Below are positions 1,094 to 63,016 of a stretch of DNA of 64,000 nucleotides, one piece after another. The notes below the pieces were generated by a model, which saw nothing but the letters and a program-made list of their open reading frames with translations, did no database searches and had not been told where the DNA came from. The position numbers were made by a program, and so were the translations under genes. The stretch's first letter is position 1. Each line of letters begins with the position of its first letter. Location: positions 8,494,001-8,558,000 of the forward strand of contig NC_090358.1 in NCBI RefSeq assembly GCF_035084215.1. The letters are read 5' to 3'. This DNA comes from Heptranchias perlo. Taxonomy: Eukaryota.

Positions 1094-1429
1094 CTGCAGA
1101 ACAAGAAAAAAAGTTACATAGAGCTATTTTTTTTCAAAATTGACTGAAGTTACTTACTCATCTGAAATCTCTACCCAATGTGCCATTGGTTTGGCCAAAA
1201 CCAGGCTGATTTTCTCCCCTAATCTTCTACTCTCCCGACTGTTGCTCAGATAGTTTCACGAGCACCTTCTGGTTACCACACTCATGTGATATGTGAGTCA
1301 AGTGTTTGCAGGCAAGGTAACTCTGGGAGGCATCTCAGTCGAGCCTCATTGTGACGAGCGCTCCCTCTCCATAACCGGCAGAAACCCGGTGATAAGATGT
1401 GAAGTACTCGCGGTGTTGCTCTGCGTGGC

Positions 1430-2612
1430 CTAGGTCTGGCCCATTCCCTGCCAATCTGCCGTCACAGTCACCCGAGCTACCTTCCACTTTGTCTGGAACT
1501 CCAAGGTAGAATGCATCTGCAGGGACACCATGTACAAGCCCAGGTGGGGGGGTGGGGGGGGGGGGGGGGGGGGGGGGGGGAAGGGCGTCCCCAATGCCGC
1601 TCTGATCCTGATGGCCACCTCTGTGCGTGGCTGCCCCAGGATGTGTGTAGCGTCCCAGTACGCAAACACCAAATGCCACTACGTGCTGAGTTTCTACCTG
1701 TCCACTACACTGAGAAGACTGGATCTGGCCACTCTGGCCGAGCAGAAGCAAGACGTCCCATCCAGCTGGACCGTACCGTACCACCTGTCCCAGGTGGAGA
1801 AGTACCTGAGGAGGAACCCCTTCCACCACAAGGCCATCAGACAATAGTCGACACTAAACGTTCTGAGAGACCTGCAGTGAAAGGAGAGGGTGGATCCAAT
1901 CGGGCAGTTCCCCGACCAGACGGTTGACGCCATTGCCAGAACTGACCAACAGGCACCAGGATGTAGCCTAGATGATGGTGAAAAGAGCCCTCCCAGCACG
2001 GTCCTTCTAACACGCATGAAATCTCAGCACCATCACGAGATGCCCTCGAGGCTTCGGCGGGGATGAGACCGTCATTCACCTCCTGATGGACTGCCCCTTC
2101 GTGCAGGTGGTGTGGAGAGGGATGCTTTGTATCTGTCCCGGTTCATCCACAACAGTTCAGTAACACAGGACACTGTGCTCTACGGGTTGTTCCTCGGGAC
2201 GCAGACAGAGACATATCATCTGCTGCTGAAAAACCATCAACTCAGTGGAGGCCGCCCTTTGGTCCGAAACCTGTTGGTCTTCCAGCTTAAAAGGAGCTGT
2301 CCATGACCAAGTGTTGCCGACTGGCACAATCCAAGGTCCAGGAGTACGTGCTGCGGGATGCACTGAAGCGAGGTGCGACCCACGCAAAGGCTATATGGGG
2401 AATGGCCACCATGTAAGGCCACCCCACTTTGTATTGTACAGAATGTATTAGAAGATATGTACTGTGTTTTGAATTGTAAAATGAGATCATAGTGTGTACA
2501 ATCTGCATTGTATTGGTTTGAACTATGTTGCTTGAAATTGTGTCCTTTTACATTGAACTGTGTGTATCTTTAAATTTCATGAAATAAAGTATATTTTGAA
2601 ATATAAAGAAAA
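1430..2612 (+). mobile_element. L1/Tx1-clade non-LTR retrotransposon, 3' fragment, degenerate
   Basis: Frameshifted ORF2 C-terminus (ANTKCHYVLSFYLS, WTVPYHL, CPR...ETVIHLLMDCPF zinc knuckle), T-rich 3' UTR, aataaagtatattttg and an A-rich tail. Confidence 0.8.
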
Positions 2613-10048: not shown

Positions 10049-11780
10049 GGCCCCTATATTAGGAGGGAGGCGGGTTGGCAGCGGTGGGGGGGGGTCGACT
10101 GGGCACGTGGGTAACGTGCCCAGTGAAATCGGTGGGCTTGGCACGCGATCGTAAGTAAATTGAAGCCACTTACCTTGGCTTCTGGGTTTCGCGCTGGAAA
10201 GCTGCGCAGCAGGCGGACTGCGCACCCGCATCATAGGCTGTCAGCTGGAGGACTCCTTTTTAAAGGGGCAGTCCTCCACTGACTGATGCTGCAGAAAATA
10301 GGCAAAATTACAGCATGGAGCAGCCCAGCGGGAAGGCTGCTCCCAGGTTTAATGATGCCTCACTCCAGGTCTTACTAGATGGAGTGAGGAGGATGAGGGA
10401 GATCCCCCACCCGGCGGGCGGGAGGAAGCGGCCTGCCTCTGCCACCACGAAGGCCTGGCTCGAGGTGGCAGAGGAGGTCACCAGCACCACCAACATATCA
10501 TGCACCTGCATACAGTGCAGGAGGCGCTTCAATGACCTAACCAGGTCAACCGAAGTGAGTGCACTTACTCATTCCCCTACACTCCGTCTGCCACATCACC
10601 GCCCCCACCCCACATCTCCTTCTGCACTGCCAACACTACTCTATCACATCACTCCTCACACCCACTGAACCCTCATCCTCATCTTACCTGCACTTCCTCA
10701 CCTCCCCAGTACTCAACCCACCACTACCACTCAACCCAATCCTCATACATGGCTCTGTCTCATACTCACCCTCTCATGCATCTCTTTCACAGTCAGCCTC
10801 ACCCCACCCGCCACTACCTGTGCTGCAGCCACAGGGCATGCATCACGTATGTGTAGTAGGAAGCGCAAGGCAAACGTGTCATGAGCATGAAGGGGATGCA
10901 CAAGGGTGTTTGAGGGTTTGTCATTGTTTTTACTTATATTTGATTTCTGATCTACTCACATTACATATTATATTGTCACCACTACTGCCACGGCTTGGTC
11001 ATTCTTGACTGGCTTGTGCAATAAGGCCCTTTCATGAGGTTCTCCAAGAACACCCTTGATGCCATCCAATGGGTTACCCTACAGTGGGTGTATGTGTAGT
11101 TGCACGACTACTTTGTGCAGGTGCCTGTTGCGCAGCACTGTGTTGTGTAGCTCCAAGTGGCGGAGATGGACGGTGTGCCTGGCGAGGCTGGTGATGTTGC
11201 TCGTCCTCCAATGGAGTGATGAATGCAGCTACGGAACCCCCCCCACCCAATCCTGACGGTGTGAGTGTGAGGGGGTCCGCAAAGTAGGTAAATGTGTTTG
11301 GACAGCAGAGTTTAGGGTATGATGTAATAACTTTGAGTGTGGAGACAACGGTGTGGCAGGCCATACTTTGTCTGAGGTGTTAGAGTGCCCTGCTGCAATG
11401 AATGAGGTATTCCCCCCCATCTGTCAAGGAATCCTCTGCATCTCCCGATGGCTGCTGACTGAAACACATCTGCAACAACAGGGAATGTTTCCCACAGCAT
11501 GGGAAACACGCTGAGGAGAGTCCAAAATCACATCCCTGCTAAAATCTCTTCCCAATGAGGTCTGTCAACGACCTCAAGTACCTCCCTAACTATCTAAACT
11601 GTCCTCCCGCTGGCTCTAATTGCCGGTGGGAGTCCCACATGCGGGGGCTGCACGTGCACTGATTCGCGTCATTGGGGAACCCGGAAGTGGGGCGGGTTGG
11701 AGCCGGGCTCCGGGATTCCCCAATTTTAGGAACACCCCCCGCCACGAACACACCCGCTCAGCCATCCTAAAATTGACCCC
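10049..11780 (+). mobile_element. PIF/Harbinger-type DNA transposon, internally deleted; Myb/SANT-like ORF at 10315 (+) and convergent remnant ORF (-)
   Basis: APRFNDASLQVLLDGV...AWLEVAEEV...QCRRRFNDL Myb/SANT-like domain followed by gtgagt; degenerate ends ggcccctatatt / aaaattgacccc. Confidence 0.8.
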
Positions 11781-18694: not shown

Positions 18695-20340
18695 TTGGTT
18701 AAGGGATGTGGGCATCGCCGACAAGGCCAGCAGTTATTGCACATCCCTAATTGCCCTTGAGAAGGTGGTGGTGAGCCGCCTTCTTAAACTGCTGCAGTCC
18801 AGTCCGTGTGGTGAAGGTTCTCCCACAGTTAGGTAGGGGGTTCCAGGATTTTGACCCAGGGACGATGAAGGAACAGCGAATTATTTCCAAGTCGGGATGG
18901 TGTGTGACTTGGAGGGGAACATGCAGGTGGTGTTGGATCCCACGTCCCGGCTGCCCTTGTCCTTCAAGGTGGTCGAGGTCGCGGGTTTGGGAGGTGCTGT
19001 CGAAGAGGTGTTGGCGAGTTGCTGCAGTGCATCCAGTAGATGGTATACACTGCAGCCACGGTGCGCCCGGTGGTGAAGGGAATGGATGTTTAGGGTGGTG
19101 GATGGGGTGCCAATCAAGTGGGCTGCCTTGTCCTGGATGGTGTCGAGCTTCTTGAGTGTTGTTGGAGCTGCACTCATCCAAGCAAGTGGAGAGTATTCCA
19201 TCACACTCCTGACTTGTGCCTTGTAGATGGTGGAAAGGCTCTGGGGAGTCAGGAGGTGAGTCACTCACCACAGAATACCCAGCCTCTGACCTGCTCTTGT
19301 AGCCACAGTATTTATGTGGCTGGTCCAGTTAAGTTTCTGGTCAACGGTGACCCCCAGGATGTTGATGGTGGGGGATTCGGCAATGGTAATGCCATTGAAT
19401 GTCTAGGGGAGGTGGTTAGACTCTCTCTTGTTGGAGATAGTCATTGCCTGGCACGAATGTTACTTGCCACTTATCAGCCTTAGCCTGGATGTTGTCCAGG
19501 TCTTGCTGCACGCGGGCACAGACTGCTTCATTATTTGAGGCGTTCCGAATGGAACTGAACACTATGCAATCATCAGCAAACATCCCCATTTCTGACCTTA
19601 TGATGGAGGGAAGGTCATTGATAAAGTAGCTGAAGATGGTTGGGCCTAGGACACTGCCCTGAGGAACTCCTGCAGCAATGTCCTGGGGCTGAGATGATTG
19701 GCCTCAACTACCACTACCATCTTCCTTTTGCTAGGTATGACTCCAGCCATTGGAGAGTTTTCCCCCCTGATTCCCATTGGCTTCAGTTTTATTATGGCTC
19801 CTTGGTGCCACACTCAGTCAAATGCTGCCTTGATGTCAAGTGCAGTCACTCTCACCTCTGGAATTCAGCTCTTTTGTCCATGTTTGGACCAAGGCTGTAA
19901 TGAGGTCTGGAGCAGAGTGGTTCTGGCGGAACCCAAATTGAGTATTGGTGAGCAGGTTATTGGTGAGTGCAGCTTGATAGCACTGTCGACGAAACCTTCC
20001 ATCACTTTGCTGATGATTGAGAGTAGACTGATGGGGTGGTAATTGGCCGGGTTGGATTTGTCCTGCTTTTTGTGGACAGGACATACCTGGTCAATTTTCT
20101 ACTTTGTCGGGTAGATGATGGTGTTGCAGCTGTACTGGAACAGCTTGGCTAGAGGTGCGGCTAGTTCTGGAGCACAAATCTTCAGCACTACAGCCGTGAT
20201 GTTGTCGGGGCCCATAGCCTTTGCTGTATCCAGTGCACTCAGCTGTTTCTTGCTATCCCGTGGAGTGAATCAAATTGGCTGAAGAATGGCTTCTGTGATG
20301 GTGGGGATCTTGGGAGGAGGCCGAGATGGATCATCCACTC
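18695..20340 (-). mobile_element. CR1-group LINE, 5'-truncated copy of the family at 37061-40377
   Basis: Reverse complement aligns to about 38610-40370 (VTHLLTPQSLSTIYKAQVRSVMEYSPLAWM); poly-T at the left end. Confidence 0.92.
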
Positions 20341-24898: not shown

Positions 24899-26281
24899 AG
24901 AACATAAGAAACAAGAGCAGGAGTAGGCCAATCGGCCCCTCGAGCCTGCTCTGCCATTCAACAAGATCATGGCTGATCTGATCCTAACCTCAAATCTAAA
25001 TTCATGTCCAATTTCCTGCCCGCTCCCCGTAACCCCTAATTCCCTTTACTTCTAGGAAACTGTATTTCGGTTTTAAATTTATTTAATGATGTAGCTTCCT
25101 GGGGCAGCAAATTCCACAGACCTACCACCCTCAGTGAAGAAGTTTCCCCTCATCTCAGTTTTGAAAGAGCAGCTCCTTATTCTAAGATTATGCCCCCTAG
25201 TTCTCGTTTCACCCATCCTTGGGAACATCCTCACCGCATCCACCTGATCAAGCCCCTTCACAATCTTATATGTTTCAATAAGATCGCCTCTCATTCTTCT
25301 GAACTCCAATGAGTAGAGTCCCAATCTACTCAACCTTTCCTCATATGTCCGCCCCCTCATCCCCGGGATTAACCGAGTGAACCTTCTTTGTACTGCCTCG
25401 AGAGCAAGTATGTCTTTTCTTAAGTATGGACACCAAAACTGTATGCAGTATTCCAGGTGCGGTCTCACCAATACCTTATATAACTGCAGCAATACCTCCC
25501 TGTTTTTATATTCTATCCCCCTAGCAATAAAAGCCAACATTCCGTTGGCTTTCTTGATCACCTGCTGCACCTGCATACTAACTTTTTGATTTTCTTGCAC
25601 TCGGACCCCCAGATCCCTTTGTACTGCAGTACTTTCCAGTTTCTCGCCATTAAGATAATAACTTGCTCTCTGATTTTTCCTGCCAAAGTGCATAACCTCA
25701 CATTTTCCAATATTGTATTGCGTCTGCCAAATCTCCACCCACTCACCCAGCCTGTCTATATCCCCCTGTAGGTTTTTTATGTCCTCCTCACTCTCCACTT
25801 TCCCTCCCATCTTTGTATCATCTGCAAACTTTGATATGTTACACTTGGTCCCCTCCTCCAAATCGTTAATATAGATTGTAAAGAGTTGGGGACCCAGCAC
25901 CGACCCCTGCGGAACACCACTGGCTACTGGTTGCCAGTCCAAGAATGAACCATTTATCCCAACTCTCTGCTTCCGGTTAGATAACCAATCTTCCACCCAT
26001 GCCAGAATATTACCCCCAATCCAGTGATTCTTTATCTTGAGCAATAATCTTTTATGTGGCACCTTGTCGAATGCCTTCTGGAAGTCTAAATACACTACGT
26101 CCACTGGTTCCCCTTTATCCACCCTGTACGTATGTCCTCAAAGAACTCAAGCAAATTTGTCAGACATGACTTCCCCTTCGTAAAGCCATGCTGACTTTGT
26201 CCTATTAAATTATGATTATCCAAATGTTCCGCTACTGTCTCCTTAATAATAGACTCCAAACTTTTACCCACCACAGATGTT
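24899..26281 (-). mobile_element. CR1 LINE, 5'-truncated, relatively young; RT ORF remnant 25079-26122
   Basis: VDVVYLDFQKAFDKVPH, SGVPQGSVLGP, KFADDTK motifs and a ttcttatgtt-type tail; interrupts a SINE/L2 tail (aacttgcattta | tatagcatcttt). Confidence 0.95.
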
Positions 26282-27454: not shown

Positions 27455-27782
27455 TCTGTAACCTCCTTCAAGCCCTACATCCCTCCGAGATCTCTGCGCT
27501 CCTCCAATTCTGGCCTCTTGTGCATCCCCGATTTTCATCGCTCCACCATTGGCGGCTGTGCCTTCAGCTGCCTAGGCCCTAAGCTCTGGAAGTCCCTCCC
27601 TAAACCTCTCATTTCCTTTAAGATGCTCCTTAAAACCTACCTCTATGACCAACCTTTTGGTCACCTGTCCTAATATCCCCTTATGTGGCTTGGTGTCAAA
27701 TTTTGTTTGATAATGCTCTTGTGAAGCACCTTGGGATGTTTTACTATGTTAAAGGCGCTATATAAAAATATATAAGTTGTTG
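27455..27782 (+). mobile_element. L2 3' fragment
   Basis: LRSSNSGLL.IP...RSTIGG.AFS and tail aaaggcgctatata. Confidence 0.85.
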
Positions 27783-27832
27783 ATATTTTTAAACCCGTGA
27801 CCATGATGGCAGACAGACAGACACAAACTCAC

Positions 27833-27915
27833 TTTTATGGAGTCCTCATGAAGTGCAGGAAACTTCTCCTCCAGATAGTCAAGTCCTTTACAGGCATAGA
27901 CATTGGCAACTGCAA
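27833..27915 (-). CDS. PLIN1: Perilipin exon 4 (IAVANVYACKGLDYLEEKFPALHEDSIK)
   Basis: Perilipin AN.YAC.GLD.LEEK.P.L motif; 83-nt exon, cttacag / gtgagt, phase 1/0. Confidence 0.95.
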
Positions 27916-29199
27916 CTGTAAGCCATAATATTCCTGGTCATCACATGAGTGGAACAACTTGAACAACCATATACCAAAGTGCTTTGGACACTTCAGTAAA
28001 TGCCTGGTAATGCTTACTGGCACATATCAAAGACCGGCACTGTAGGCTCTCATTCTGCAATTTTTGTAGCACAACAAATTTGGACTTGGAAGATTAAATC
28101 ATGTACTTCTCATTTTCAGAAACATGATATTTACAAGACAATTACCATATAAATTTTTTTTAGAAAGTGTTGATGATATTGGGGATTTTATCTTGAACAA
28201 GTTGAATGAGGGAGCAGACTTTTTACAATGGTGATTAACACAACAATACAGTGTGAAGAGTTTTGCCTACTGTGACGGTTTTTTTTAAAAAAAAGGGGAA
28301 ATAAGACTGATAAATTTATCAATAGCTACAGGCCTTGCAACATAGAAGTAGAATTCATCTATAGTTAAACAATCTGGAAGCCAAGAACTAAACTTTAGGA
28401 GGGATGTCAGAGGGAAAAACTTAGTCTTGGGCTACTCTTCCACATGCTACATTGGGTTGGTATATAATTATACTGGCAGATACATGAGCAGGCCACAAAC
28501 CAGTCCACTTAACTGAGGAATGTTTATATAAATGGTACCGAAACAAGGTCTGTACAATTGGCTCTTTACTAGAAAGTTACTGGGCAACTTTTCAGTACAC
28601 TTTAGTCAAGTAAGCTGAAGTATTGGAAGATAATCCATTTATTATTGGTCATTACTAAGTTACCAAAGTGCACTACTGGAGTCAAAACTAGGAGTGGAGG
28701 TAACAGTCAGTTTAAAGCGTCAAACAGAATTATTTTTGTGCTTGCTTCCATTTTTTTTAGAAAAAGTTCCCACACTGCCAATCTCTCCCATGAGGCAACT
28801 CTACATTAACCTCAGAGGAATAAAAATCTGTGTCTGATCCCATAATATTAATATAGATACATTATACACTTTTAGAGTATGAAACTGAAAACCTTTTAGC
28901 AGTACAGCAACTATCGATTTGGAGGAGATGGATGTACAATTGAACACCAAGCACTTCATAGTAGCTGCAGTACTCCTTCTAGCCAGAGAAGGTTCCAGAA
29001 CCAAGCTAAGTACAGTAGGTAAAGATTTTGCTCAGCGCCATTTTTCAGATTTCCTGCCACGAGATTACAGTACGCTTGGCTTAAATATGGCTTCCAAAGT
29101 TTACAAACTGATCAGAAGGTGCACAGGTTGGAACCATTTAGAAAATCTTTGACTTTTGAAGCTGAATTTGGCAGTTTTAGGTGCAGCTGTCTTAAATAA

Positions 29200-29625
29200 G
29201 TGCGGCTGCAGAATGTACAATCTACAGATGCACTGCAGCAACTCACTAAGGTTACTTCAACAGTATTTCCCTGCCCTTGGACATTTGGCACCAAGAAGGA
29301 CAAGAGCTGCAATGTTGTGAGAACACCATCATCTCCAAGTCACACACATCCTGACTTGGACATATATAGTCATTCCTTCATCGCTGCTGGGTCAGAAACC
29401 TGGAAATCTCTATGTAACACTATTGTGGGAGCACCATCGTCACAAGGACTGCAGCAGTTCAAGGAGAAGGATCACCACCACACTCAGGGCAACTAGGGAT
29501 GGGCAATAAATGCCAGCCTTGCCCACATACTACAACAGACTACATTTTGAAAAAAAGTACTTAATTGGCTGTAAAGCACTTTGGGATGGCATGAGATTGT
29601 GAAAGGCACTATATAAATGCAAGAA
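29200..29625 (+). mobile_element. Old CR1-group LINE tail joined to a DeuSINE-like tail
   Basis: Similarity to 40110-40350, followed by aaaagtacttaattggctgtaaagcactttggg...aaaggcactatataaatgcaag. Confidence 0.7.
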
Positions 29626-29782
29626 TTTCTATTTTTATATACTGAACAGAAAAGGGCACTGATTCAATTACAGGTTATGTCAGTACATCAGTGTGTTGAA
29701 GCTCCAATGAATTGCAGCACATACCTACAATTCCCCACACTGAGTTTTTCCGGACCTCAAAACTGTGAAACTTATTGCTCAT

Positions 29783-30095
29783 CTTTCGGATGAGATGTTA
29801 AACTGAAGCCCCGTCTGTCCTCTCAAGTGAATGTAAACGATCCCATGGCACTATTTTGAAGAAGAGCAGGGGAGATCTTTTTGGTGTCGTGGCCAATATT
29901 TATCCCTCTACCAAACATCACTAAAACAGATCTTCTGGTCGTTATCACATTGCTGTTTGTGGGACCTAGCTATGGGCAAATTGGCTGTCGCATTTCCTAC
30001 ATTAGAACAGTGACTACACTTCAAAAGTATCTCATTGGCTGTAAAGCTCTTTGGGACATCTTGACATCGTGAAAGGCACTATATAAATGCAAATC
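29783..30095 (+). mobile_element. DeuSINE-like SINE (central domain and tail)
   Basis: ctttcggatgagatgttaaactgaagcccc...gatcccatggcactattttgaagaagagcagggg central block; L2-like tail. Confidence 0.8.
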
Positions 30096-30981
30096 TTTCT
30101 CTCTATCTGGCTTTCCTCTTTCCTACGATTTCTAGGCCTTACAGCTAAAGCTTGGGTGTCAATCACTACTTCTGCATTTACCTCACTCCCCAGAAACCAG
30201 CTATAGTGACACTGGACAGATTACTTTCTCTCAGGTCTCTCCTACCTGGGGATGGGGAAGGGATTGACCACTTGATATTTTTGAAGCTTCCATTGTTTTG
30301 ACATTTGATAATGGTTTAAAACCTTGAAACATTTAGAATTTTTTTTTTTTAAAAAGGAACAATGGAACCTTATTCCAAAAAAAATGTTCTTTAGCATTTG
30401 GAAAGATTTTGAAAAAAAGGAAAGCAAATTAATATCTTTAATGCCCTTCAAGTGCACTTTCTGGTAGATGCAAATTTCATCTAAATCAGACATTTTCCTC
30501 ATATAAAATAGTACCAAATTAAGTCAATGTAGTGTGGGCGATCCATCATTAAACTACACTATCTTAAAATGGCACAAACACAACCCAATGAAGCCAAATT
30601 ATGCAAATATCCTGACCCTAAATAACATTATTAGACAAAGAAAAGTTACATTCAAGAAAGGCCTGCCACGTCATTAATCATCCAGCTACTGCATCCTTGG
30701 TTTTGCTTTTCTAAGTCCCAGTAATGTTCCGTTTCAGTGAGTTATTGCTGGACTTTTTGACTGGCTTTGTCATCTGGTGATGCTGGCCATGTCCTGATAG
30801 TTAAGTTCAGCCTAAGCCAACAGAACAGCAAATGGACCAATATCTATGTCTGAAGTCAGAGGCAGATGACATGCTGAAGCCAAGCATCAGTGTGGAAGAA
30901 TGAGATGGAAAGCAAGACAATAAATGTAGGCATATTCACATACTGAGCCCAAGGTTAACACCACAACTAGTAGGTCCTTAC

Positions 30982-31180
30982 TTTGAGGCTGTAGTTTCTG
31001 AAGAACTGGCTGCATGCTCTTCACAGCCAGAGCAGTAGTTATTTTTATTCCTCTCTCAGAAACCTCACAAACTGATGCGACTACAGGATATTTGTCCTTG
31101 GTGTGGTTATAAGCATTGTAGAAGATGTCACAAGTGGAACTTACTGCCAGCAGGCTGCTGAACCTCTTTATGAAGTTCTC
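30982..31180 (-). CDS. PLIN1: Perilipin exon 3, PAT domain (ENFIKRFSSLLAVSSTCDIFYNAYNHTKDKYPVVASVCEVSERGIKITTALAVKSMQPVLQKLQPQ)
   Basis: Hand translation gives the perilipin PAT signature (Y..TK..YP.VASVCE..E.G); ttttatag acceptor, gtaag donor; 199 nt, phase 0/1. Confidence 0.93.
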
Positions 31181-35405: not shown

Positions 35406-36310
35406 AGCACCGTCAACTCTTCCTCTTGCTAGAACTGTTACCCAACAGTGTAATCAATAGCTATTGTGGTTTTATCTTTCTGTTGGGCCGTATGTAGAAG
35501 GGTGAAGCTGTGCAATGTGCAGCACACTGGGTTCACAATGCATTGTATTAAAACAGTGGGGGCCGGTGAACAGGTTCCTTCTATTGTGCCTAGGCGAGTT
35601 CCAGACTTCAGTTACCCTGGTGTGGGAAAGTGGAAGGCAAAGCAAAGGGGGAAAAAGGAAAATCAGAGGGAGCATCATCATAATTATCAGACTCATCTTG
35701 TCCACATCCTAGCAGCCCAGCTCAGAGCAACATTGTCAGAGGGTTTGGAGTATGATATCCAACTACACTCTCAACCACATGGCCATCCTGATAGTTGCAA
35801 GAGCAACAGACTAAGACTTTTTCAAACTTGAAGTACCCGAGTAAGTAGGAGAATAATGCTGATGAAAATATGGGGCAAAATAGGAGGGAAGAAATTACAG
35901 AAAGAGTTTTTTTTTAAATCAAGTATTTTGGAAAAGATTGACAAGATTTAGGAGTAATTCAAATCAGACGTGTAAACTCCAGTATAAAGGCAGGACTAAA
36001 CAATCATTTGGCCCCACCATAGTCATATATGGAAAAAACTCAAGGAATTTGATCCAAGCAATTTTCCAGATGGTAGACATGCTAAATTAAGGTGGATGTT
36101 CACCCTGAACATTAGTATCCAACCAAATCATGAATTTCAAGGCACCAAATTATACTAAGAATTGAAAGGCATTTAAAATGGTGTCTTTCCAAGATGTATC
36201 CAAAAGCTAAGCAGGAGCAATCACTGCTCAGGCGGAGGTTGAGAATGCTGTCTTAAGGGCGATCGGAGCCACAAACAATAGAAAATTGGAACCACACCAA
36301 CCTTCAGACT

Positions 36311-36706: not shown

Positions 36707-39700
36707 CCTTCAGGTACTCAAAAAGAAGTCCAATGACTTCATAAAGAACACCCCAGGAGGAAAGGATTTTAATTATTAGCTATGTTCCCACTGAGTGATA
36801 AGAAACTTGGGGTTTATATGTTGACCTCAAAGTTAACAAATACCAGACCGTTAAGAAATCTTTGATACGGTTATGGTTAAAGTCAACAAACAAGCATATG
36901 AGTGAAAAAATGGCCTAACCATAAGAAATTCTAGATACGATGCCTTGATGTTGCCATTAAGTAAAAGAAACAGCATCATATCACACAATTTAGAAATGTC
37001 TCAAATTGCTTTGCATACACTGCTTTACTTTGTTGTGCATTGACTGTTATGTGGGAAAATGTGGTAGCATAGTGGTTATATTACTGGACTAGTAATCCAG
37101 AGTCATGAGTTCAAATCCCGCCATGGCAGCTGGGGAATTTAAATTCAATTAAATAAAATCTGGAATTAAAATACTAGTGTCAGTAATGGTGGCCATGAAA
37201 CTACCGGATTGTTTTTTAAAAACCCATCTGGTTCACTAATGCCCTTTAGGGAAGGAAACCTGCCGTCCTTACCCAGTCTGGCCTATATGTGACTCCAGAC
37301 CCACAGCAATGTGGTTGATTCTTAATTGCCCTCTGAAATGGCCTAGCAAGCCACTCAGTTGTAAAATCTCACTAAAAGAAGTCATAATAAGAATAAAACC
37401 GGACGGACCACTAGGCACCGGACAGGACAAAGGCAAACCAAGCCCAGTTGACCCTGCAAAGTCCAAAATTGGGAGAGCTGTCCCACAGACTAGTCAAGCA
37501 ACAGCCTGACATAGCCATACTCACAGAATCATACCTTTCAGCCAACGTCCCAGACTCTTCCATCACCATCCCTGGGTATGTCCTGTCCCACCGGCAGGAC
37601 AGACCGACCAGAGGTGGCGGTACAGTGATATACAGTCAGGAGGGAGTGGCCCTGGGAGTCCTCAACATTGACTCTAGACCTCATGGCATCAGGTCAAACA
37701 TGGGCAAGGAAACCTCCTGCTGATTACCACCTACCGCTCTCCCTCAGCTGATGAATCAGTCCTCCTCCATGTTGAACACTACTTGGAGGAAGCACTGAGG
37801 GTAGCAAGGGCACAGAATGTACTCTGGGTGGGGGACTTCAATAATCATCACAAAGAGTAGCTCGGTAGCACCACTGCTGGCCGAGTCCTGAAGGACAGAG
37901 CTGCCAGACTGGGCCTGCGGCAGGTGGTGAGCGAACCAACACGAGGGAAAAACTTACTTGACCTCATCCTCGCCAATCTACCTGTCGCAGATGCATCTGT
38001 CCATGACAGTATTGGTAGGAGTGACCACCGCACAGTCCTCGTGGAGATGACGTCCCGTCTTAGCACTGAGGACACCATCCAACGTGTTGTGTGGCACCAC
38101 CACCGTGCTAAATGGGATAGATTCAGAACAGATCTAGCAGCTCAAAACTGGGCATTCATGAGGCGCTCTGGGCCATCAGCAGCAGCAGAATTGTATTCCA
38201 GCACAATCTGTAACCTCATGGCCCGGCATATTCCTCACTCTACCATTACCAACAAGCCAGGGGATCAACCCTGGTTCAATGAGGAGTGTAGAAGAGCATG
38301 CCAGGAGCAGCACCAGCCGTACCTAAAAATGAGGTGTCAACCTGGTGAAGCGACAACTCAGGACTACATGCATGCTAAACAGCGGAAGCAACATTCTATA
38401 GACAGAGCTAAGCGATTCCACAACCAACGGATCAGATCAAAGCTCTGCGGTCCTGCCACATCCAGTCGTGAATGGTGGTGGACAATTAAACAACTAACGG
38501 GAGGAGGAGGCTCTGCAAACATCCCCATCCTCAATGATGGCGGAATCCAGCACGTAAGTGTAAAAGACAAGGCTGAAGCGTTTGCAACCATCTTCAGCCA
38601 GAAGTGCCGAGTGGATGATCCATTTCGGCCTCCTCCCGATATCCCCACCATCACAGAAGCCAGTCTTCAGCCAATTCGATTCACTCCACGTGATATCAAG
38701 AAACGGCTGAGTGCACTGGATACAGCAAAGGCTATGTGCCCTGACAACATCCCTACTGTAGTGCTGAAGTATTGTGCTCCAGAACTAGCTGCGCCTCTAG
38801 CCAAGCTGTTCCAGTAGAGCTACAACACTGGCATCTACCCGACAATGTGGAAAATTGCCCAGGTATGTCCTGCCCACAAAAAGCAGGATCAAATCAATCC
38901 GGCCAATTAGCGCCCCATCAGTCTAATCTCGATCATCAGCAGAGTGATGGAAGGTATCGTCGACAGTGCTATCAAGCAGCACTTACTCACCAACAACCTG
39001 CTCACCAATGCTCAGTTTGGGTTCCACCAGGACCACTCGGCTCCAGACCTCATTACAGCCTTGGTCTAAACATGGACAAAAGAGCTGAATTCCAGAGGTG
39101 AGTTGAGAGTGACTGCCGTTGACATCAAGGCAGCATTTGACCGAGTGTGGCACCAAGGAGCCCTGGTAAAATCAAAGTCAATGGGAATCAGGGGGAAAAC
39201 TCTTCAGTGGCTGGAGTCATACCTAGCACAAAGGACGATGGTAGTGGTTGTTGGAGGCCAATCATCTCAGCCCCAGGGCATTGCTGCAGGAGTTCCTCAG
39301 GGCAGTGTCGTAAGCCCAACCATCTTCAGCTGCTTCATCAATGACCTTCCCTCCATCATAAGGTCAGAAATGGGGATGTTCGCTGATGATTGCATTGTGT
39401 TCAGTTCCATTCGCAACCCCTCAAATAATGAAGCAGTCCGAGCCCGCAAGCAGCAAGACCTGGACAACATCCAGGCTTGGGCTGATAAGTGGCAAGTAAC
39501 ATTCGCGCCAGACAAGTGTCAGGCAATGACCATCTCCAACAAGAGAGAGTCTAACCATCTCCCCTTGACATTCAACGGCATTACCATCGCCGAATCCCCC
39601 ACCATCAACATCCTGGGGGTGTGACCAGAAACTTAACTGGACCAGCCATATAAATACTGTGGCTACAAGAGCAGGTCAGAGGCTGGGTATTCTGCGGCGA

Positions 39701-40006
39701 GTGACTCACCTCCTGACTCCCCAAAGCCTTTCCACCATCTACAAGGCACAAGTCAGGAGTGTGATGGAATACTCTCCACTTGCCTGGATGAGTGCAGCTC
39801 CAACAACACTCAAGAAGCTCGACACCATCCTGGACAAAGCAGCCCGCTTGATTGGCACCCCATCCACCACCCTAAACATCACTCCCTTCACCACTGGCGC
39901 ACAGTGGCTGCAGTGTGTACCATCCACAGGATGCACTGCAGCAACTCACCAAGGCTTCTCTGACAGCACCTCCCAAACCCGCGACCTCTACTACTTAGAA
40001 GGAAAA

Positions 40007-40099
40007 ATAGTAGAGTTCACCTGACGAAGGAGGAAGCCTCCGAAAGCTTGTGAATTTAAAATAAAATTGCTGGACTATAACTTGGTGTTGTAAAATTGT
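40007..40099 (+). mobile_element. Short Penelope-like terminal-repeat insert nested in the LINE
   Basis: Absent from the paralogous LINE copy near 18960; flanked by the duplication ttagaaggaaaa; nearly identical to the insert at 61336-61478. Confidence 0.85.
40016..40054 (+). ncRNA. Minimal type I hammerhead ribozyme motif
   Basis: ttcac-CTGACGA-a-ggagg(aag)cctcc-GAAA-gc-tt-gtgaa: stem I ttcac/gtgaa, stem II ggagg/cctcc, palindromic AAGCTT in place of stem III. Confidence 0.75.
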
Positions 40100-43000
40100 T
40101 TAGAAGGAAAAGAGCAGCAGGTACATGGGAACAACACCACCTGCACGTTACCCTCCAAGTCACACACCATCCCGACTTGGAAATATATCGCCGTTCCTTC
40201 ATCGTTGCTGGGTCAAAATCCTGGAACTCCCTTCCTAACAGCACTGTGGGAGAACCTGCATCAGACGGACTGCGGCGGTTCAAAAAGGCGGCTTATTACT
40301 GCCTTCTCAATTAGGGATGGGCAATAAATGCCGGCCTCGCCAGCGAAGCCCATATCCCATGAACGAATAAAAAAAAACATGAATGACTAGGTTCTTTTTG
40401 ACATTGGGAGATGGAGGAATGTTGGCCAGGACATTGGGAGAACTCGCTGCCAAACATCAATAACTCTCTAAATATAGTAAAAAAAATAAAAGTACTGGAT
40501 ATAATAACTGGTCATTGTCATGTCGAGATTTGTGTGAAATTGTGATTGATTTTAACAAAATGTTGTGAGTAATATCTCAATATGGAAAACAAATTGGGTC
40601 ATTAATCAATCCAACAGTTTATTCTTAGCAAAAGTAGTAAAATATATGTAATCATGAGAATTTACAAACACATGAAAGTCCTTTAATGGTTACTACACAT
40701 TCAGATACTTTGAGAATGGATGGTTGCTTCAATAAGGGGACTTGTATATGTATCCGCCCAATTGCATGGGGCAGTTGTGTTAACGTACACAGTTCAAATG
40801 ACACAATCACTAAAGTATTCTGGGTTAATGATTATATCTTTGCCGACATTAGTTCAACTCCCTCACACTTTGAGTAAATAATCCCTTAAGGTCAGTTACT
40901 TAATTATATCACTGTTTAAATATAAATATTCTGAAAAAAATCAATAGACAGAAAATAAACAAACCAAAATGATAAAAGTTTATAGTAATCCTTTGTAACT
41001 GTTTCATTTTTCAAAAGGTTACTGAACTTGTTTATAATGTTTCAAAAAGCAAATAACATGCATAAAAGCAAAATCCTATGAAGAGAATGCATTCTCCTTT
41101 ACTATTGTCATACTATAAGTCACAACAGAAATAGATAACAGGTACCAGGATACCATGTGAAAACGGATTGCTTTTCATTCACCTAAGAGAAGGCATTGAC
41201 TAGCATGCAACATTGGCGAGCAGGGCTGAGGTGCTGTCAGATTCAATGGGTAATTGTCTCAGGCAGCTTTCCCCACGGGATTAAATTTGAATGTATGACC
41301 AGGAAAGTCAGATGACAGGGCAAATGGCTGCTGATTAGTTGGCGATTTTCCGTGGATTCAACATAGAAGTCTTCTATGTAATGGAGAAGCCCAAGAAATG
41401 GATTGGATGAAGCACTTGTAGTTTGTCCCTGGTGACAGATGATTCACAGGTCAGGAGAGCTTGTCCCATGACTGCTTGTCTTCACATACAAAAACCAAAT
41501 TGGCACTGGCTGTTTTGCACTAAGATGAAGACAAATTATATTTGCACAGATCTCTGTGTTTGGCATTGGTGGAGGCCCATGAGAAAGTCTTCTGCCTGCC
41601 CCCTCAGGCCACAGGTAGCTGGTAGTGTTGGGAGACCAGAGAACTAGGGAGGAAATACAGAGATATCACACCTCCACACAGAATAGAAAACAAAATGATG
41701 AAGCATCGATTTTTATAAAGGATCCTTTTGCAGACACATTTTAGAGTGGTGAATGTCTTTAAAAACATACTGTTATTGCCAAATTGATCATTGAAAGAAG
41801 GACTTGCATCTTAACATGTGTCTGAAACATCTTGACGTATAATTAATTACTTTGAATCACAGTGACTGTTATTAATATGCAAAATACAGCAGATATGATG
41901 TACTCATACACATGGGGGTAGACATTGGTCCTTTTTGCGCCTGTTTCAAGCCTATAAAAACGCCCGCAGTTTCTGCACGGAGTACCAGTATTAGAAATTT
42001 AGGTCTGCCATACATACCTTCTCAGGTTCAATGACGTCAGTCACTCCCATAATACTTCTAATGGGAGTTGACTCGCAACCTGGGGGTGTAACAATAATGC
42101 CCCCTTATGACATGAATGTTGGTGTCTTTTGCACACGTACTCCTTCAATCTCTTCAAAGGTAGACACAACAGGTGTGAGGTGTGTTGTTTTTTTGATTAC
42201 TTAGGCAAGCCAACAAATCGCTTAATATTGTGTCTCTGGAGGAAACAACTTCCATTTAGCGTATGCACCACTTTTCATCTAGGTGTGTTTCTTAAAAGTT
42301 GTGAGAATACACTTTGCTTAAAAATCCCACCATTAAAAGTAACTTTTTATTTCAATTTTTTTCTGTGGAAAATAGTCAAGAAATCCTGAAAAATGACAGT
42401 CAGCTAAATTGTATCATCGGATCCTGGAATGGGGCTCGAACCCACAACCTTCTGACTCAGAAACAAAATTGCTACTGCACCTACTGATAGCAAAAATCTG
42501 CACTAAATACTAATGGTACGGCTTCAGGCATGGCTTCTCCTGCCTGTGGAATTCTCTCTCAGTGACGTCACCTGGAACTTTATCCATTTTGCAAAAGAGT
42601 TCTAGAGACAGAGTTAACCATCACTTGCTGAACTATAGCTGTTGAGCACGTATGAGACTATTGCAAAACCCAAGTAATCTATTTCAGAGCCTTTCTGCAC
42701 TCTCAGTAAGCACTAGGATCAAATTAATCAGACCTCTGTCCTTGTTACTGTTGCCTCTGGCTGTACCTTGGTTACTATGCTGTTTAAAAATACATAGAAA
42801 CAAAACAAAATAAGTAAAAGTGGTCTAATGTTTACAAATTGTTACAGACTTTGTCAAACAGCAGTTGCTTCAATGATGTTATGACTGGGCTTCTGTTGAC
42901 CAGTTGGACTCTATTGTATGATCTGCCATCCATCAAAACAACAGAGGAGCCAGTTTCCATGGAGATTTCCACTTGGGACATGACATGGAATGCAAGCATG

Positions 43001-51647: not shown

Positions 51648-52225
51648 TCATGGTCTCAATTTTAGTGCTGGGTGCGTCAAAGTTAGAATTGAGAGAATGG
51701 AGGAAACAAGACCACAGAGACCCACCACGCCAGGATTGGTTTTGTAAATGCCTAGTTTGTCTAATGGAATGGTGAGGTCACAGAGATTTTTAACAATGTC
51801 GAGTAGTACAGGAGGATTGCTCTTAAGGCTTTGAAAAAGCAGTATGAAGAAAGCTTCAGTCTTGACCCTTGCTGTCCAGACAAACTCTCTCTGCATGTGA
51901 TTATTTTCCAGGTGGTTTATGGATTTGCACTGTTGTTCCTTCTGGGCGAGTGCTTCTTCTTTCAGGAGCTGGACAATCTCATAGACATCTCTGCTCAGGT
52001 TGATAATCAACGAGAAGAAATAGTAGTGGTTGCACCGCTTGTTCCATTTCTCCTTGTCTATATCACTAAGCCCCACCACTCCCACCCAGAGGATATTATC
52101 ACAGATGAAGTACAGAGCCCGACTGAGAGGAACGACTGTGAGATAAAAACGAAGCACTGGGTCTGAGAGCTGAACGTTCCTTCTGGCTGTCTGAACTGCA
52201 TCGAATGTGTTACCTAACCGGAATA
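51648..52225 (-). CDS. PEX11A: PEX11A exon 3 (LFRLGN...HPALKLRP*), peroxisomal membrane protein 11A, 249 aa in total
   Basis: FRLGN, RALYFICDNILW, P.LLD.VKNLCD..IPLDKLG and a C-terminal hydrophobic segment; 56+116+578=750 nt; three-exon structure and position between PLIN1 and WDR93 indicate the A paralogue. Confidence 0.95.
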
Positions 52226-52489
52226 CTGAAATAAAGCAGAGAGGATTTAATACAGCACAAGCCTTTACCAGTTGGCAATGACAAACATAAAAATAAAATG
52301 ATTCTGGGTGAGGCACTAACAATTTAAATAAAGGCAGGTTTTCTCTGGTTGAGCTTTCAGAAGCTAAATCTCTTCCACCTGCAGTACCATACATTAGAGG
52401 CCGTTTATATATTAGTAACTACTTACTAGCCAGTTTTATCATTTGACCATAAGAGAGAGAATGTCAGTGTTGATTACAGGTTGAAATCT

Positions 52490-52746
52490 CTGTGCTCTTC
52501 TTGCGCATCCCCGATTTTCATCGGTCCACCACTGGCAGCCGAGCCTTCAGCTGCCTATGTCCCAAGCTCTGGAATTCCCTCCTCCTTTAAGACACTCCTT
52601 AAAACCTACCTCTCTGACCAAGCTTTTGGTCATCTGTCCTAATACCTCTTGATGTGGCTTGGTGTGAAATTTTGTTTGACAACGCTCCTGTAAAACTCCG
52701 AGACATTTTACTATGTTAAAGGCACTATATAAATGCAAGTTGTTGC
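52490..52746 (+). mobile_element. L2 3' fragment in PEX11A intron 2
   Basis: Same tail, aaaggcactatataaatgcaagttgttg. Confidence 0.85.
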
Positions 52747-52781
52747 TGATTTTTTCCCTGCAGAGTTGATTGTATACTTAC

Positions 52782-52897
52782 ACTTACGTCCTGCACTCAT
52801 GTTAGACTCCAACTGTTTAAGCTTTGCAGCCAGCTCCTTGTTGCTACCATTCTTGTGAATTAGATAATTAAGTAACGTGCATGCATACTGAGTGGTT
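52782..52897 (-). CDS. PEX11A: PEX11A exon 2 (TTQYACTLLNYLIHKNGSNKELAAKLKQLESNMSAGRK)
   Basis: QYAC.LL and L..LES..S.GRK PEX11 motifs; 116 nt, ttctttcag / gtaagt. Confidence 0.95.
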
Positions 52898-53289
52898 CTG
52901 AAAGAAAACAAAATACAAGAAGCACAGAGCTTATTTCCTGCTACATGTAACAATTACAGTGCCTAATGTTTATGGCAAACGCACGATCTTTAACAAATGT
53001 GTAGGGATCAAAAAGATACTACGATATGTCATCTTAACTAATTGTAGAAGCATTAGACACTATACTATTCATTTCACATAGCACCATTACAGCAGCAGAG
53101 AGAAAGGATTTTCACCACTCAGCCTGGGCTGGAATTCAAAATCGGGTCCCAGAGGTGAAAGGACAGTAAGCAACTGGTCTATCTTCACAGGTATTACAGG
53201 ATCTATGGAGAGGTTTTTGCATGAATTATTAAGGTTCAGCAGAAATCCTAAATTAAAGTTTTGTCATTTCTGTGTTTTTTCAAAGTCAC

Positions 53290-61091: not shown

Positions 61092-61335
61092 GTATTTATC
61101 TGAAAATATTTATTATGTAATTGTATTTTTTCCCCCAAGATTTCTCTCCTTCTGTTTGCAAGGCTCTGATTCCTTGCTGGCTTCTGTTTACTTTGTCGTT
61201 CTTAATGTGCAAATTTATGCAGTGAGTATCAGCAGGCCATTTACTTGCAAGGGGTATCATAGCTAAACCTGATCCTGCCCCTACCTGATAGCCACACAAA
61301 TGCACTTTCCAACAGGAGTCACTGTATTATTAGAA

Positions 61336-61478
61336 TGATGTGGAGATGCCGGTGATGGACTGGGGTTGACAATTGTAAACAATTTTACAACACCAAGTTA
61401 TAGTCCAGCAATTTTATTTTAAATTCACAAGCTTTCGGAGACTTCCTCCTTCCTCAGGTAAATGTTCAGGTCAGGTTA
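61336..61478 (-). mobile_element. Short Penelope-like terminal-repeat insert in a WDR93 intron
   Basis: Flanked by the 12-bp duplication gtattattagaa (61324-61335, 61479-61490); about 85 bp nearly identical to 40016-40102. Confidence 0.85.
61424..61462 (-). ncRNA. Minimal type I hammerhead ribozyme motif, second copy
   Basis: Minus strand tttac-CTGAGGA-a-ggagg(aag)tctcc-GAAA-gc-tt-gtgaa; differences from copy 1 fall at the free N7 position or give G-U wobbles. Confidence 0.72.
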
Positions 61479-63016
61479 GTATTATTAGAAGGGGAACCTT
61501 GGCTGCATTTTCCCATCCCAGTCCCAAGAGCATAGAGGACAACTGTAATGCCTTAACTTCTGCTGCAACCAATATTAGCTAACTCAGCACAAACCTTCCT
61601 GGTTTGTAAGGATAGACGGTATTTATCTTAAATCAAGGATACCATTAATTTCATGGGGAAGCGGCTGTTTCTCTTGCAATAGTCTATTGACAATATGATT
61701 TGAGGTACAAGTGCAATTGCCCATTATACAAATGGTGCAACTTGTTTAGCTGTCCCTCTCTCTTGCATTAGGGAAGCATATTTTTGTACCATGCTACAAA
61801 GAATGGGCTGAGCGGTGGTAATGTGGGCCCTGAAGTATGCTGTAGTCATTTTATTAGAATTGAGGAGGAGCACTATTGTCCATCCCTGCCATCTACATGA
61901 CACTTAGGAACATTCTACAAGTGCTGCAGTTTTCAGACAATGTCCACACTGAGATGCAGTGCCAGGTGTGAATAGTCAGTTTCATCAAATTTACACCCAG
62001 ATTTCAAAACTGAAATTGCAAATAAATAAATTGCTGATTTTTAAAAATATCTATCTGCTTCTGTACCAAGTTTTGTAATTAACAAAGTTTTGGAGCACAG
62101 CAACATAGTCTGCTTGGAGCTCCAGGCCAAAACTGCAACTATGTTAGTTTTTTGTGTGTTTCAGAGCACTAATTAGATAGAAATTGTGTTTCCTCCACAT
62201 GTATCTCTCTAAATGTTCTGTTAATAGCAAGTTTATTCATTTATTTGCTTGGGTCTTTTTCAAAGCTCCACTAAAGCAGCACTGTTTGAGATAAGAGAAT
62301 GCCTAATTGGTAACCCCTGGGGCTTGTTATGCATACAGGGTATGATAGGGTATTTGTTCATCTTTTCCCGTCATTGGCTCTGCACTCTTAAATTGTAAAA
62401 TGACATTTCTAGTGACAGCTAATTACTCCCCATGAATTATCGTGCCATTCGTGAAGCGTTTGCTACAACAGATCATCCTTGTGCATCCTGGAACAACTCC
62501 ATTATTGCATTCCCAGCCTATAGCATGATTTCCGGAGGTCTGGTGGCTCCAGAGTGTCACCAGAGCAGTCCAAAGTCATACTTTCCTTACTGTTGTTTGC
62601 AACGGAGCTGCGCTAGGACACTCCCCATAATGGGAGCAACCTAGCACGTGGGGAGATCTCACTCAAGGGTCCCCAGTTCGGTGCTAAAATAGCAATTTAA
62701 AACGAAACATCAAATAAGAATATAATTGTAATAAAGATGGACTATTTTGAATGCAAATATATTTTCTTACCATTTATCTTTTCTTTATCTTTCAGATACT
62801 GACTGACCTGCTGTGCATTTTCCAGCATTTTCTGTTTTCATTGTAGACTTCCAGCATTCACACTTTCTTTTTATTCTGCATCCTTTACATTACAAAGGAA
62901 TTTATAATACATTATTCTAGTGCTTCACTCCCACCATACACATCTTTTTCTCTTCAAGAATTACTTCATTTGTATTTTGTGACTTAATCCCTTGTTTCTC
63001 TCCTTTTGTATTTTAG

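What the first reader, a model, noticed from the sequence alone, without database searches (positions are those of the whole stretch)
40007..40111. Hammerhead ribozyme carried by a tiny Penelope-derived insert nested in a LINE
Seen: a roughly 93-bp insert between 12-bp duplications, largely a hammerhead: stem I ttcac/gtgaa, core CUGACGA plus an extra A, 5-bp stem II, GAAA, and palindromic AAGCUU replacing stem III. Established: Penelope-like elements carry minimal type I hammerheads with a palindromic stem III that are thought to cleave as dimers. Inference: this is a young, very short, non-autonomous ribozyme-bearing retro-unit or a heavily truncated pLTR, and it could cleave host transcripts that read through it.
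Basis: partly seen in the sequence, partly recalled or inferred. Interest (0 to 1): 0.8.

Follow-up and report, generated by a model that had tools for sequence, protein, structure and literature searches.

The report
Penelope retroelement end fragment with hammerhead
This is one of tens of thousands of short, near-identical end pieces of a young Penelope-type jumping gene, each carrying its small hammerhead ribozyme motif; the motif is a known feature of these elements, but where the pieces begin suggests they are copies of the very front of the element's RNA.

Summary
In detail: 93 bp between 12-bp duplications in a LINE copy, with a minimal type I hammerhead (40015-40055). It is not a unique or independent unit. 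Bases 40015-40102 are identical over 88 nt to the 3' pLTR of a full-length element with an intact 902-aa RT/GIY-YIG-type ORF (Neptune-like linker). A 31-mer of the motif occurs 42,858 times in the 3.25-Gb genome, the ORF start 833 times. 3' ends fall at two sites about 38 nt apart (the known PLE 'tail'). 5' ends pile up just upstream of the hammerhead, about 30 nt behind a TATA box, and the pile shifts with the TATA box between two subfamilies. Best reading: cDNA primed internally near the front of the element's mRNA and run off its 5' end; stalling at the ribozyme fold is the rival. Such solo minimal hammerheads in PLE fragments are published; cleavage was not tested. The motif is antisense to both neighbouring genes, so cleavage of host RNA here is unsupported. 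The scan noted the 5' pile-up before in another genome (e1-7858714). New here: master elements, TATA-linked shift, 18 of 18 asymmetric head-to-head pairs, a step at the cut site.

The parts
37063..40379 (+). Host LINE copy (RT fragments, frameshifted; A-rich 3' end); 5' limit approximate
   Evidence: RVT_1 on 39070-39621, E 1.9e-26; blastn to sister copies, mostly 86-95% identity; a 31-nt pattern of the empty site occurs 21,891 times
39986..39993 (+). Flank stretch copied in inverted form into the 5' junction
   Evidence: inverted pair I3; carries a T where 12 of 12 sister LINEs have C, and the filler copy has the same T
39995..40006 (+). Left target-site duplication, 12 bp
   Evidence: family D5; single in sister LINEs
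40007..40014 (+). 5' junction filler, templated from the flank, not element sequence
40015..40102 (+). Element-derived piece (pLTR, subfamily A), 88 nt identical to the 3' pLTR of the full-length element in L072; ends at 3' site 1, lacks the tail
40015..40055 (+). Minimal type I hammerhead motif; core 40021-40027 and 40042-40045, stem II 40029-40041, palindrome 40044-40049, predicted cut after 40049
40060..40065 (+). AATAAA, followed by a G/T-rich stretch near 40082-40092: poly(A)-signal-like (inference)
   Evidence: sequence; use as a signal not tested
40100..40111 (+). Right target-site duplication; first 3 nt also match the element (microhomology at the priming junction)
61335..61470 (-). 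Second short copy of the same family (subfamily B), with tail, between 12-bp duplications (61479-61490, 61324-61335) and with about 8 nt of filler
   Evidence: 99.3% over 137 nt to L070

Best explanation
The insert is a by-product of a young, probably still active endonuclease-positive Penelope-like element (most likely Neptune clade; unit about 3.08 kb, 902-aa ORF). Shown: it is the pLTR sequence of that element; the family has tens of thousands of short copies with duplications of about 9-15 bp, two 3' end sites about 38 nt apart and 5' ends piled 20-39 nt upstream of the anchor (anchor 0 = window 40040). Inferred: (1) a TATA promoter in the upstream pLTR starts the mRNA a few to a dozen bases before the hammerhead; (2) the RT-endonuclease nicks the target and primes inside the RNA at site 1 or site 2 (site 2 = the start codon), as shown in vitro for the anole element; (3) because these sites also lie near the front of the mRNA, priming there gives a 90-140 nt cDNA that runs off the RNA's 5' end, like a strong-stop product; (4) the 5' end is joined by microhomology or a short flank-templated patch, as here. 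The hammerhead rides along uncut, lacks its promoter and a partner, and is probably inert at this locus; its work, if any, is in the tandem master transcript, as a dimer or with the element's protein. Identity as a PLE piece is near certain (about 0.97); the run-off step is about 0.65.
For: 88/88 nt identity to L072, whose ORF is 902 aa with RVT_1 E 2.8e-10. Intact 902-aa ORFs at 7 of 8 start-codon contexts in 6 loci, which I picked for their 3.08-kb spacing. Exact counts: ORF start 833, -120 region 15,412, hammerhead 3' half 42,858, +32..+59 64,954. First 100 anchor matches on contig C1: 47 end at +62..+75, 45 at +99..+113, 6 run on into the ORF, 2 end earlier. After removing 5 duplicates, 44 of 89 copies at risk end within -20..-39 (2.5% per nt) against 5 of 36 within -60..-199 (0.1% per nt). 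TATA T at -65/-66 in subfamily A and -58/-59 in B in all 34 long copies. Short ends at -33..-37 versus -27..-30: A 10 vs 1, B 5 vs 10, Fisher p 0.005. Hand tally of independent listings: A 33 of 70 usable rows at -33..-36 and 10 at -26..-29 (30 of 100 rows left out as long copies, other families or ambiguous); B 36 of 60 at -26..-29 and about 5 at -33..-36 (40 of 100 rows left out as long copies). Head-to-head pairs: 18 of 20 have both ends free, and all 18 have one arm at site 1 and one at site 2. Internal RT starts that define the tail, and uncut RNA as the main template: PMC11167929.
Against: No RNA 5'-end data were obtained, so the start site is inferred from DNA ends only. The rank test on the same short ends shows no shift (Mann-Whitney p 0.36), and the Fisher bins were chosen after seeing the data. 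The pile is broad: this insert starts at -25, 11 nt short of the A edge, and 13 of 70 A rows start at -24/-25, the foot of stem I, which suits a structure effect. 9 of 60 B rows start at -36..-39, upstream of a single predicted B start. The samples come from the first megabases of one contig, count both arms of a pair, and were selected on exact patterns of unequal length. The D. virilis Penelope promoter is internal and TATA-less (PMC2377424). Pfam did not detect GIY-YIG in the ORF; no tree was built for the clade.
Confidence: 0.65

Rival explanations
1. Ordinary 5' truncation with a structural hot spot: reverse transcription primes in the 3' pLTR of a long transcript and stalls or switches template just after it has copied the hammerhead fold, for instance because the new cDNA folds back on the two arms of stem I.
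For: Many ends at -24/-25, including this insert; many of these are inverted junctions; ends are also raised over +10..+17, exactly the 3' strand of stem I. Single motifs were ascribed to truncated PLEs in PMC4209133.
Against: The main edge moves about 7 nt between subfamilies whose hammerheads sit at the same place, in step with the TATA box; the commonest A ends lie 8-11 nt beyond the fold; the rate falls about 25-fold upstream of -60.
Confidence: 0.25
2. A self-propagating non-autonomous unit (retrozyme- or SINE-like): short hammerhead RNAs, from mini-inserts or from solo pLTRs that keep the TATA box, are cut, perhaps circularised, and copied in trans.
For: Short copies outnumber ORF starts about 50-fold. 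About 15,000 copies reach upstream of the TATA box and could be promoters. Subfamily A gives more short copies per long copy than B (8 of 31 versus 26 of 53 extend beyond 70 nt). A 404-bp tandem array holding the ORF start exists on C2. Retrozymes were linked to pLTRs in bioRxiv 2026.07.22.740005.
Against: This copy is a monomer. Among 40 scored best matches only the window itself carries its 5' filler. Copies span the predicted cut site rather than start or end there (749 matches versus 42,858). Hammerhead variants of short copies mirror those of full-length elements. In the anole element the RNA needed the first 172 nt of the ORF, which the short copies lack.
Confidence: 0.08
3. The insert is a working cis-acting ribozyme that cuts a host transcript at this locus.
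For: The core is intact; stems I and II form with probability about 0.5 in 300 nt of + strand context.
Against: Antisense to the flanking Perilipin and PEX11 exons; sense only to a frameshifted LINE copy; no second motif nearby on the same strand; a single published minimal motif did not cleave; the insert is young and unconserved.
Confidence: 0.02

Closest known systems
[quoted passage not shown]
   Same: No helix III, palindromic 15.2-16.2 positions, extra nucleotide between 9 and 10.1, G10.1-C11.1 pair, location in pLTRs, mostly found as single motifs thought to be truncated PLEs
   Different: Stem II is 5 bp (7-8 bp in the Schistosoma families); exact copies number above 40,000 here versus about 4,000 and 9,000 reported for coelacanth and Xenopus; low sequence variability, as in the invading D. 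virilis family
Poseidon of Anolis carolinensis, PAc (Frangieh et al. 2024, PMC11167929)
   Same: Tandem units, two 3' end sites that bound a 30-40 nt tail, hammerhead spanned uncut by genomic copies
   Different: In PAc the hammerhead overlaps the start codon and RT starts over 100 nt into the ORF; here the motif lies wholly in the 5' UTR, site 2 is at the start codon and the protein has a CX2-5CxxC linker. The parts of that paper I read do not describe a pile-up of 5' ends
Neptune/Nematis-type EN+ Penelope-like elements (as summarised in Craig et al. 2021, PMC8557442)
   Same: Single ORF with RT and C-terminal GIY-YIG with two cysteines between the motifs, extra Zn-finger-like linker, partial tandems, inverted 5' copy, tail at one end only
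   Different: Clade not tested by phylogeny; a TATA/Inr-like promoter is inferred (suggested for a rotifer pLTR in PMC3846280), whereas D. virilis Penelope is TATA-less (PMC2377424)
Animal non-LTR retrozymes (bioRxiv 10.64898/2026.07.22.740005)
   Same: Type I hammerhead, pLTR ancestry, dispersed monomers
   Different: Defined as tandem arrays with a motif in each unit; this copy is a TSD-flanked monomer whose ends are those of the autonomous element

Membership tests
Minimal type I hammerhead of PLEs | Core CUGANGA, GAAA, UH in order with stems I and II | tested here: met
Minimal type I hammerhead of PLEs | Extra nucleotide 9/10.1, G10.1-C11.1, palindromic 15.2-16.2 | tested here: met
   A40028, G40029-C40041, AGCU 40045-40048; features from PMC4209133
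Minimal type I hammerhead of PLEs | Stem covariation across copies | tested here: met
   29 of 42 distinct motifs aligned (left out: those with flank-derived stem I, one 42-nt variant, near-duplicates): 93.9% of cells paired, 10 of 13 pairs with a change on both sides, slid controls 30-54%. The descriptor demanded core and stems, and 3 rows of a second family carry much of the signal, so this leans towards the model. Less biased: in copies found by the downstream 28-mer, stem II's closing pair runs G-C, G-U, A-U between subfamilies, but 5 rows change C11.1 to U and one breaks GAAA
Minimal type I hammerhead of PLEs | Self-cleavage as dimer or with protein | not testable with these tools
   The two-strand MFE was an intermolecular stem exchange, not the palindrome-paired dimer; no assay
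EN+ Penelope-like element | Single ORF with RT, flanked by pLTRs in tandem | tested here: met
   902-aa ORFs between motifs about 3.08 kb apart; RVT_1
EN+ Penelope-like element | C-terminal GIY-YIG with two Cys between the motifs | tested here: met
   Motif VYLIRCRKGCPRAWYIG at 807 of P0001; Atlas lead, third row, PF01541 on 13% of members, score 0.96; Pfam scan itself negative
EN+ Penelope-like element | 30-40 nt tail at one end, inverted 5' copies, variable TSD | tested here: met
   two end sites about 38 nt apart; duplications of 9-15 bp in 18 of 18 pairs, 8 bp or more in 13 of 28 unpaired short copies
Neptune clade | CX2-5CxxC linker between RT and EN | tested here: met
   CHGNLCKTC at 769 of P0001; feature from PMC8557442; shared with Nematis
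Neptune clade | RT phylogeny | not tested
Non-LTR retrozyme | Tandem repeats with a motif in at least two consecutive units | tested here: not met
   single unit at this locus
Non-LTR retrozyme | Circular or unit-length RNA | not testable with these tools
   no run on record as RNA

The most novel reading that the evidence does not exclude
This pLTR is laid out like a retroviral U3-R-U5 (TATA, start, hammerhead, AATAAA, priming sites). Most genomic copies are strong-stop-like run-offs from the front of the mRNA, head-to-head copies come from one dimeric enzyme priming both nicked strands at the two sites, and a minority class (a few percent) starts at the ribozyme's cut site, which would be a genomic footprint of in vivo cleavage by a minimal PLE hammerhead. 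For the last point: starts at +6..+9 are depleted (9 of 80, 28 expected, p 1e-6) and +10, the cut site, is raised (11 versus 4.8, p 0.008), but +10 is not clearly above +11..+17 (p 0.06), so stalling in stem I fits as well (20 palindromic rows left out). The run-off part alone is about 0.65; all parts together about 0.25.
Probability: 0.25. Interest if true: 0.6.

Novelty: new member of a known kind. Interest (0 to 1): 0.33.

Why it matters
The insert itself is ordinary: one of very many fragments of a known class with a known motif. Its value is as a marker for a young vertebrate PLE family with intact ORFs and tens of thousands of near-identical insertions, which make two open questions testable from sequence plus one RNA experiment: why PLE copies are so often tiny, and whether their minimal hammerheads ever cut in vivo. 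A Neptune-type element would also complement the one Poseidon element studied in vitro.

Tried and rejected
Rfam scan of 38000-42000: no hammerhead family matched. DNA search with the tail of the second copy returned nothing, the tool skipping very common words; patterns were used instead. L013's upstream extension gave 9 matches and led to the pLTR. Sequencing runs: no RNA holder listed; the four guessed-RNA contig sets from one sample were laid on L072 and showed no start or end places; they may be DNA and differ in sequence from this family, so I draw nothing from them. PDB sequence search of the ORF: 0 matches. The hazard table undercounts long copies (my duplicate filter merged them at the 800-nt cap), so only its end list and variants were used. 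An extra G at 5' junctions, a possible sign of the cap, was considered; many such G's belong to the inverted arm, so it was not counted. A splice acceptor at the 5' edge was rejected because copies share no upstream exon. A pattern scan for the first PEX11 exon found none, so it is open whether the second copy lies in that gene's intron. Supplement text of PMC11167929 had none of five search terms; its figure S2 on genomic copy ends was not visible and may bear on novelty.

Full report
Observation. The 12-bp direct repeat (39995-40006, 40100-40111) and the 93 bp between are there. Twelve sister copies of the host LINE have the site once (12 of 12), and the duplication carries this locus's own substitutions, so it arose at insertion. 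The hammerhead is as described; 40012-40058 folds into stems I and II better than 200 of 200 shuffles, and a descriptor finds 2 motifs in the window and none in 150 simulated windows. Rfam has no match. The element-derived part is 40015-40102; the first 8 nt are filler, an inverted copy of the flank 39986-39993, a junction patch of a kind I recall from microhomology-mediated repair.

Family. The window lies on contig C37 of a 3.25-Gb assembly. Of 40 scored matches, 18 others are 100% identical over 86 nt. Exact counts: 42,858 for the motif's 3' half, 64,954 for the next 28 nt, 15,412 for a 24-mer about 120 nt upstream, 833 for the ORF start; the patterns differ in length and in the subfamilies they cover, so only the orders of magnitude compare. 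A second copy lies in the window at 61335-61470 on the minus strand. That the host is a cartilaginous fish is my recall of these repeats, not a tool result.

Master elements. Motifs about 3.08 kb apart flank long ORFs. Seven 902-aa ORFs were intact in six loci chosen for that spacing. They carry RVT_1, a CX2-5CxxC linker and a GIY-YIG-type motif with two cysteines, which PMC8557442 gives as marks of Neptune/Nematis and of PLE endonucleases; bioRxiv 2026.07.22.740005 found only Neptune and Poseidon in its vertebrates. Pfam missed the endonuclease; the Atlas gave GIY-YIG as a lead. Two subfamilies share 98% in the ORF and about 71% in the 260 nt upstream of the anchor. The insert is identical over 88 nt to the subfamily A element in L072, while its LINE host is about 5-10% from its sisters: the insert is young.

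3' ends. With window 40040 as position 0, the first 100 matches on C1 end at +62..+75 (47) or +99..+113 (45); 6 run into the ORF and 2 end earlier. The second site is the start codon. This is the PLE tail, which PMC11167929 traced to two internal RT start sites. The insert ends at site 1 with 3 nt of microhomology. Of 20 head-to-head pairs, 18 have both ends free, and all 18 combine site 1 with site 2, with duplications of 9-15 bp; unpaired copies split 29 to 26. That fits one dimeric enzyme priming both strands (inference); a tail at one end only is already described.

5' ends. Among 95 deduplicated copies, 44 of 89 at risk end in -20..-39 and 5 of 36 in -60..-199. A TATA box lies at -65/-66 in A and -58/-59 in B; by the textbook spacing of about 30 nt (recalled) starts are expected near -36 and -29. 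Observed: A 10 vs 1 and B 5 vs 10 in bins -33..-37 and -27..-30 (Fisher p 0.005, bins chosen after the fact; Mann-Whitney p 0.36). Hand tallies of two further listings agree: A 33 of 70 usable rows at -33..-36, 6 further up; B 36 of 60 at -26..-29, but 9 at -36..-39 (30 and 40 rows left out). I read this as run-off from the mRNA's 5' end after internal priming near its front. The insert, at -25, belongs to the downstream shoulder, where stalling at stem I would fit too.

The ribozyme. Variation between subfamilies and a second family keeps the stems and swaps the palindrome's centre from GC to CG, with the biases given in the membership table. Most copies span the cut site, as expected if uncut RNA is the main template. 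A filtered search for copies starting between +6 and +17 found 749; starts are rare at +6..+9 and step up at +10, the predicted cut (the script reproduced my hand tally for the 30 rows it could read). Cleavage or stalling within stem I both explain the step. Published tests found no cleavage by a single minimal motif and low cleavage by dimers, and protein-assisted cleavage in the anole element, with no reads ending at the site.

Host effect. Pfam places Perilipin-family exons at 27761-27937 and 30890-31180 and PEX11 exons at 51651-52953, all on the minus strand (120 ORFs scanned, 117 of the 139 listed plus 3 others). The insert lies between them on the plus strand, so their transcripts would carry the antisense. 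No RNA evidence was obtained.

What is known. Solo minimal hammerheads in truncated PLEs are published (PMC4209133: parts 1-2 of 4 read). PMC11167929: parts 1-2 of 4 read, supplement text searched without hits. bioRxiv 2026.07.22.740005: part 1 of 5 and passages; supplements closed. PMC8557442: introduction and passages. PMC3846280, PMC2377424, PMC6155905: passages only. Six searches listed no paper on PLE hammerheads in sharks, and what I read did not describe a 5' pile-up at a start site; subscription papers such as Arkhipova 2006 were not searchable. Earlier notes of this scan saw the pile-up and the fold-back copies in other genomes; I looked at them after my own analysis, and they are not independent support.

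Verdict. Real feature, new member of a known kind, interest 0.33. The insert is ordinary; the family's end pattern offers a testable account of why PLE copies are tiny and a weak hint of cleavage in vivo.

Noticed in passing
window 61335-61470 (-): Second short copy of the same family (subfamily B, with tail, 12-bp duplication), sense to PEX11; whether it is inside that gene is open
   Followed up: partly
window 51651-52953 (-) and 27761-31180 (-): PEX11 and Perilipin-family exons; the order recalls the human PEX11A-PLIN1 neighbourhood (recalled, not tested)
   Followed up: partly
L008:1350-1390 (+), L045:2132-2172 (-), L161:2644-2684 (+): A second, unrelated-looking minimal hammerhead family with different stems and the palindrome centre CG instead of GC
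   Followed up: partly
L072 versus L070: Subfamilies A and B share 98% in the ORF but only about 71% in the 3' UTR/promoter part, which suggests replacement or fast change of the promoter region; hybrid A/B hammerheads occur
   Followed up: partly
G000:C2:21273053-21276316: At least nine copies of the ORF-start pattern 404 bp apart: a short tandem array, possibly retrozyme-like
   Followed up: no
G000:C1:4459500-4469400 (L068) and C1:188733849-188740046: Head-to-tail runs of three units about 3.08 kb apart; L068 holds two intact ORFs
   Followed up: partly
listing, e.g. L145-L150: 20 of 100 rows are perfect fold-back junctions centred on the AAATTT-like palindrome just before AATAAA
   Followed up: no
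window 10264-10665 (+), 1403-1924 (+), 18747-19483 (-), 25079-26137 (-): Other mobile-element remains: a weak Myb/SANT-like hit (E 0.00024), an unassigned ORF, a second copy of the host LINE type and another LINE-like RT ORF
   Followed up: no
window 35475-35708 (-): 78-aa frame with a hydrophobic stretch after a Met; no Pfam match; unexplained
   Followed up: no
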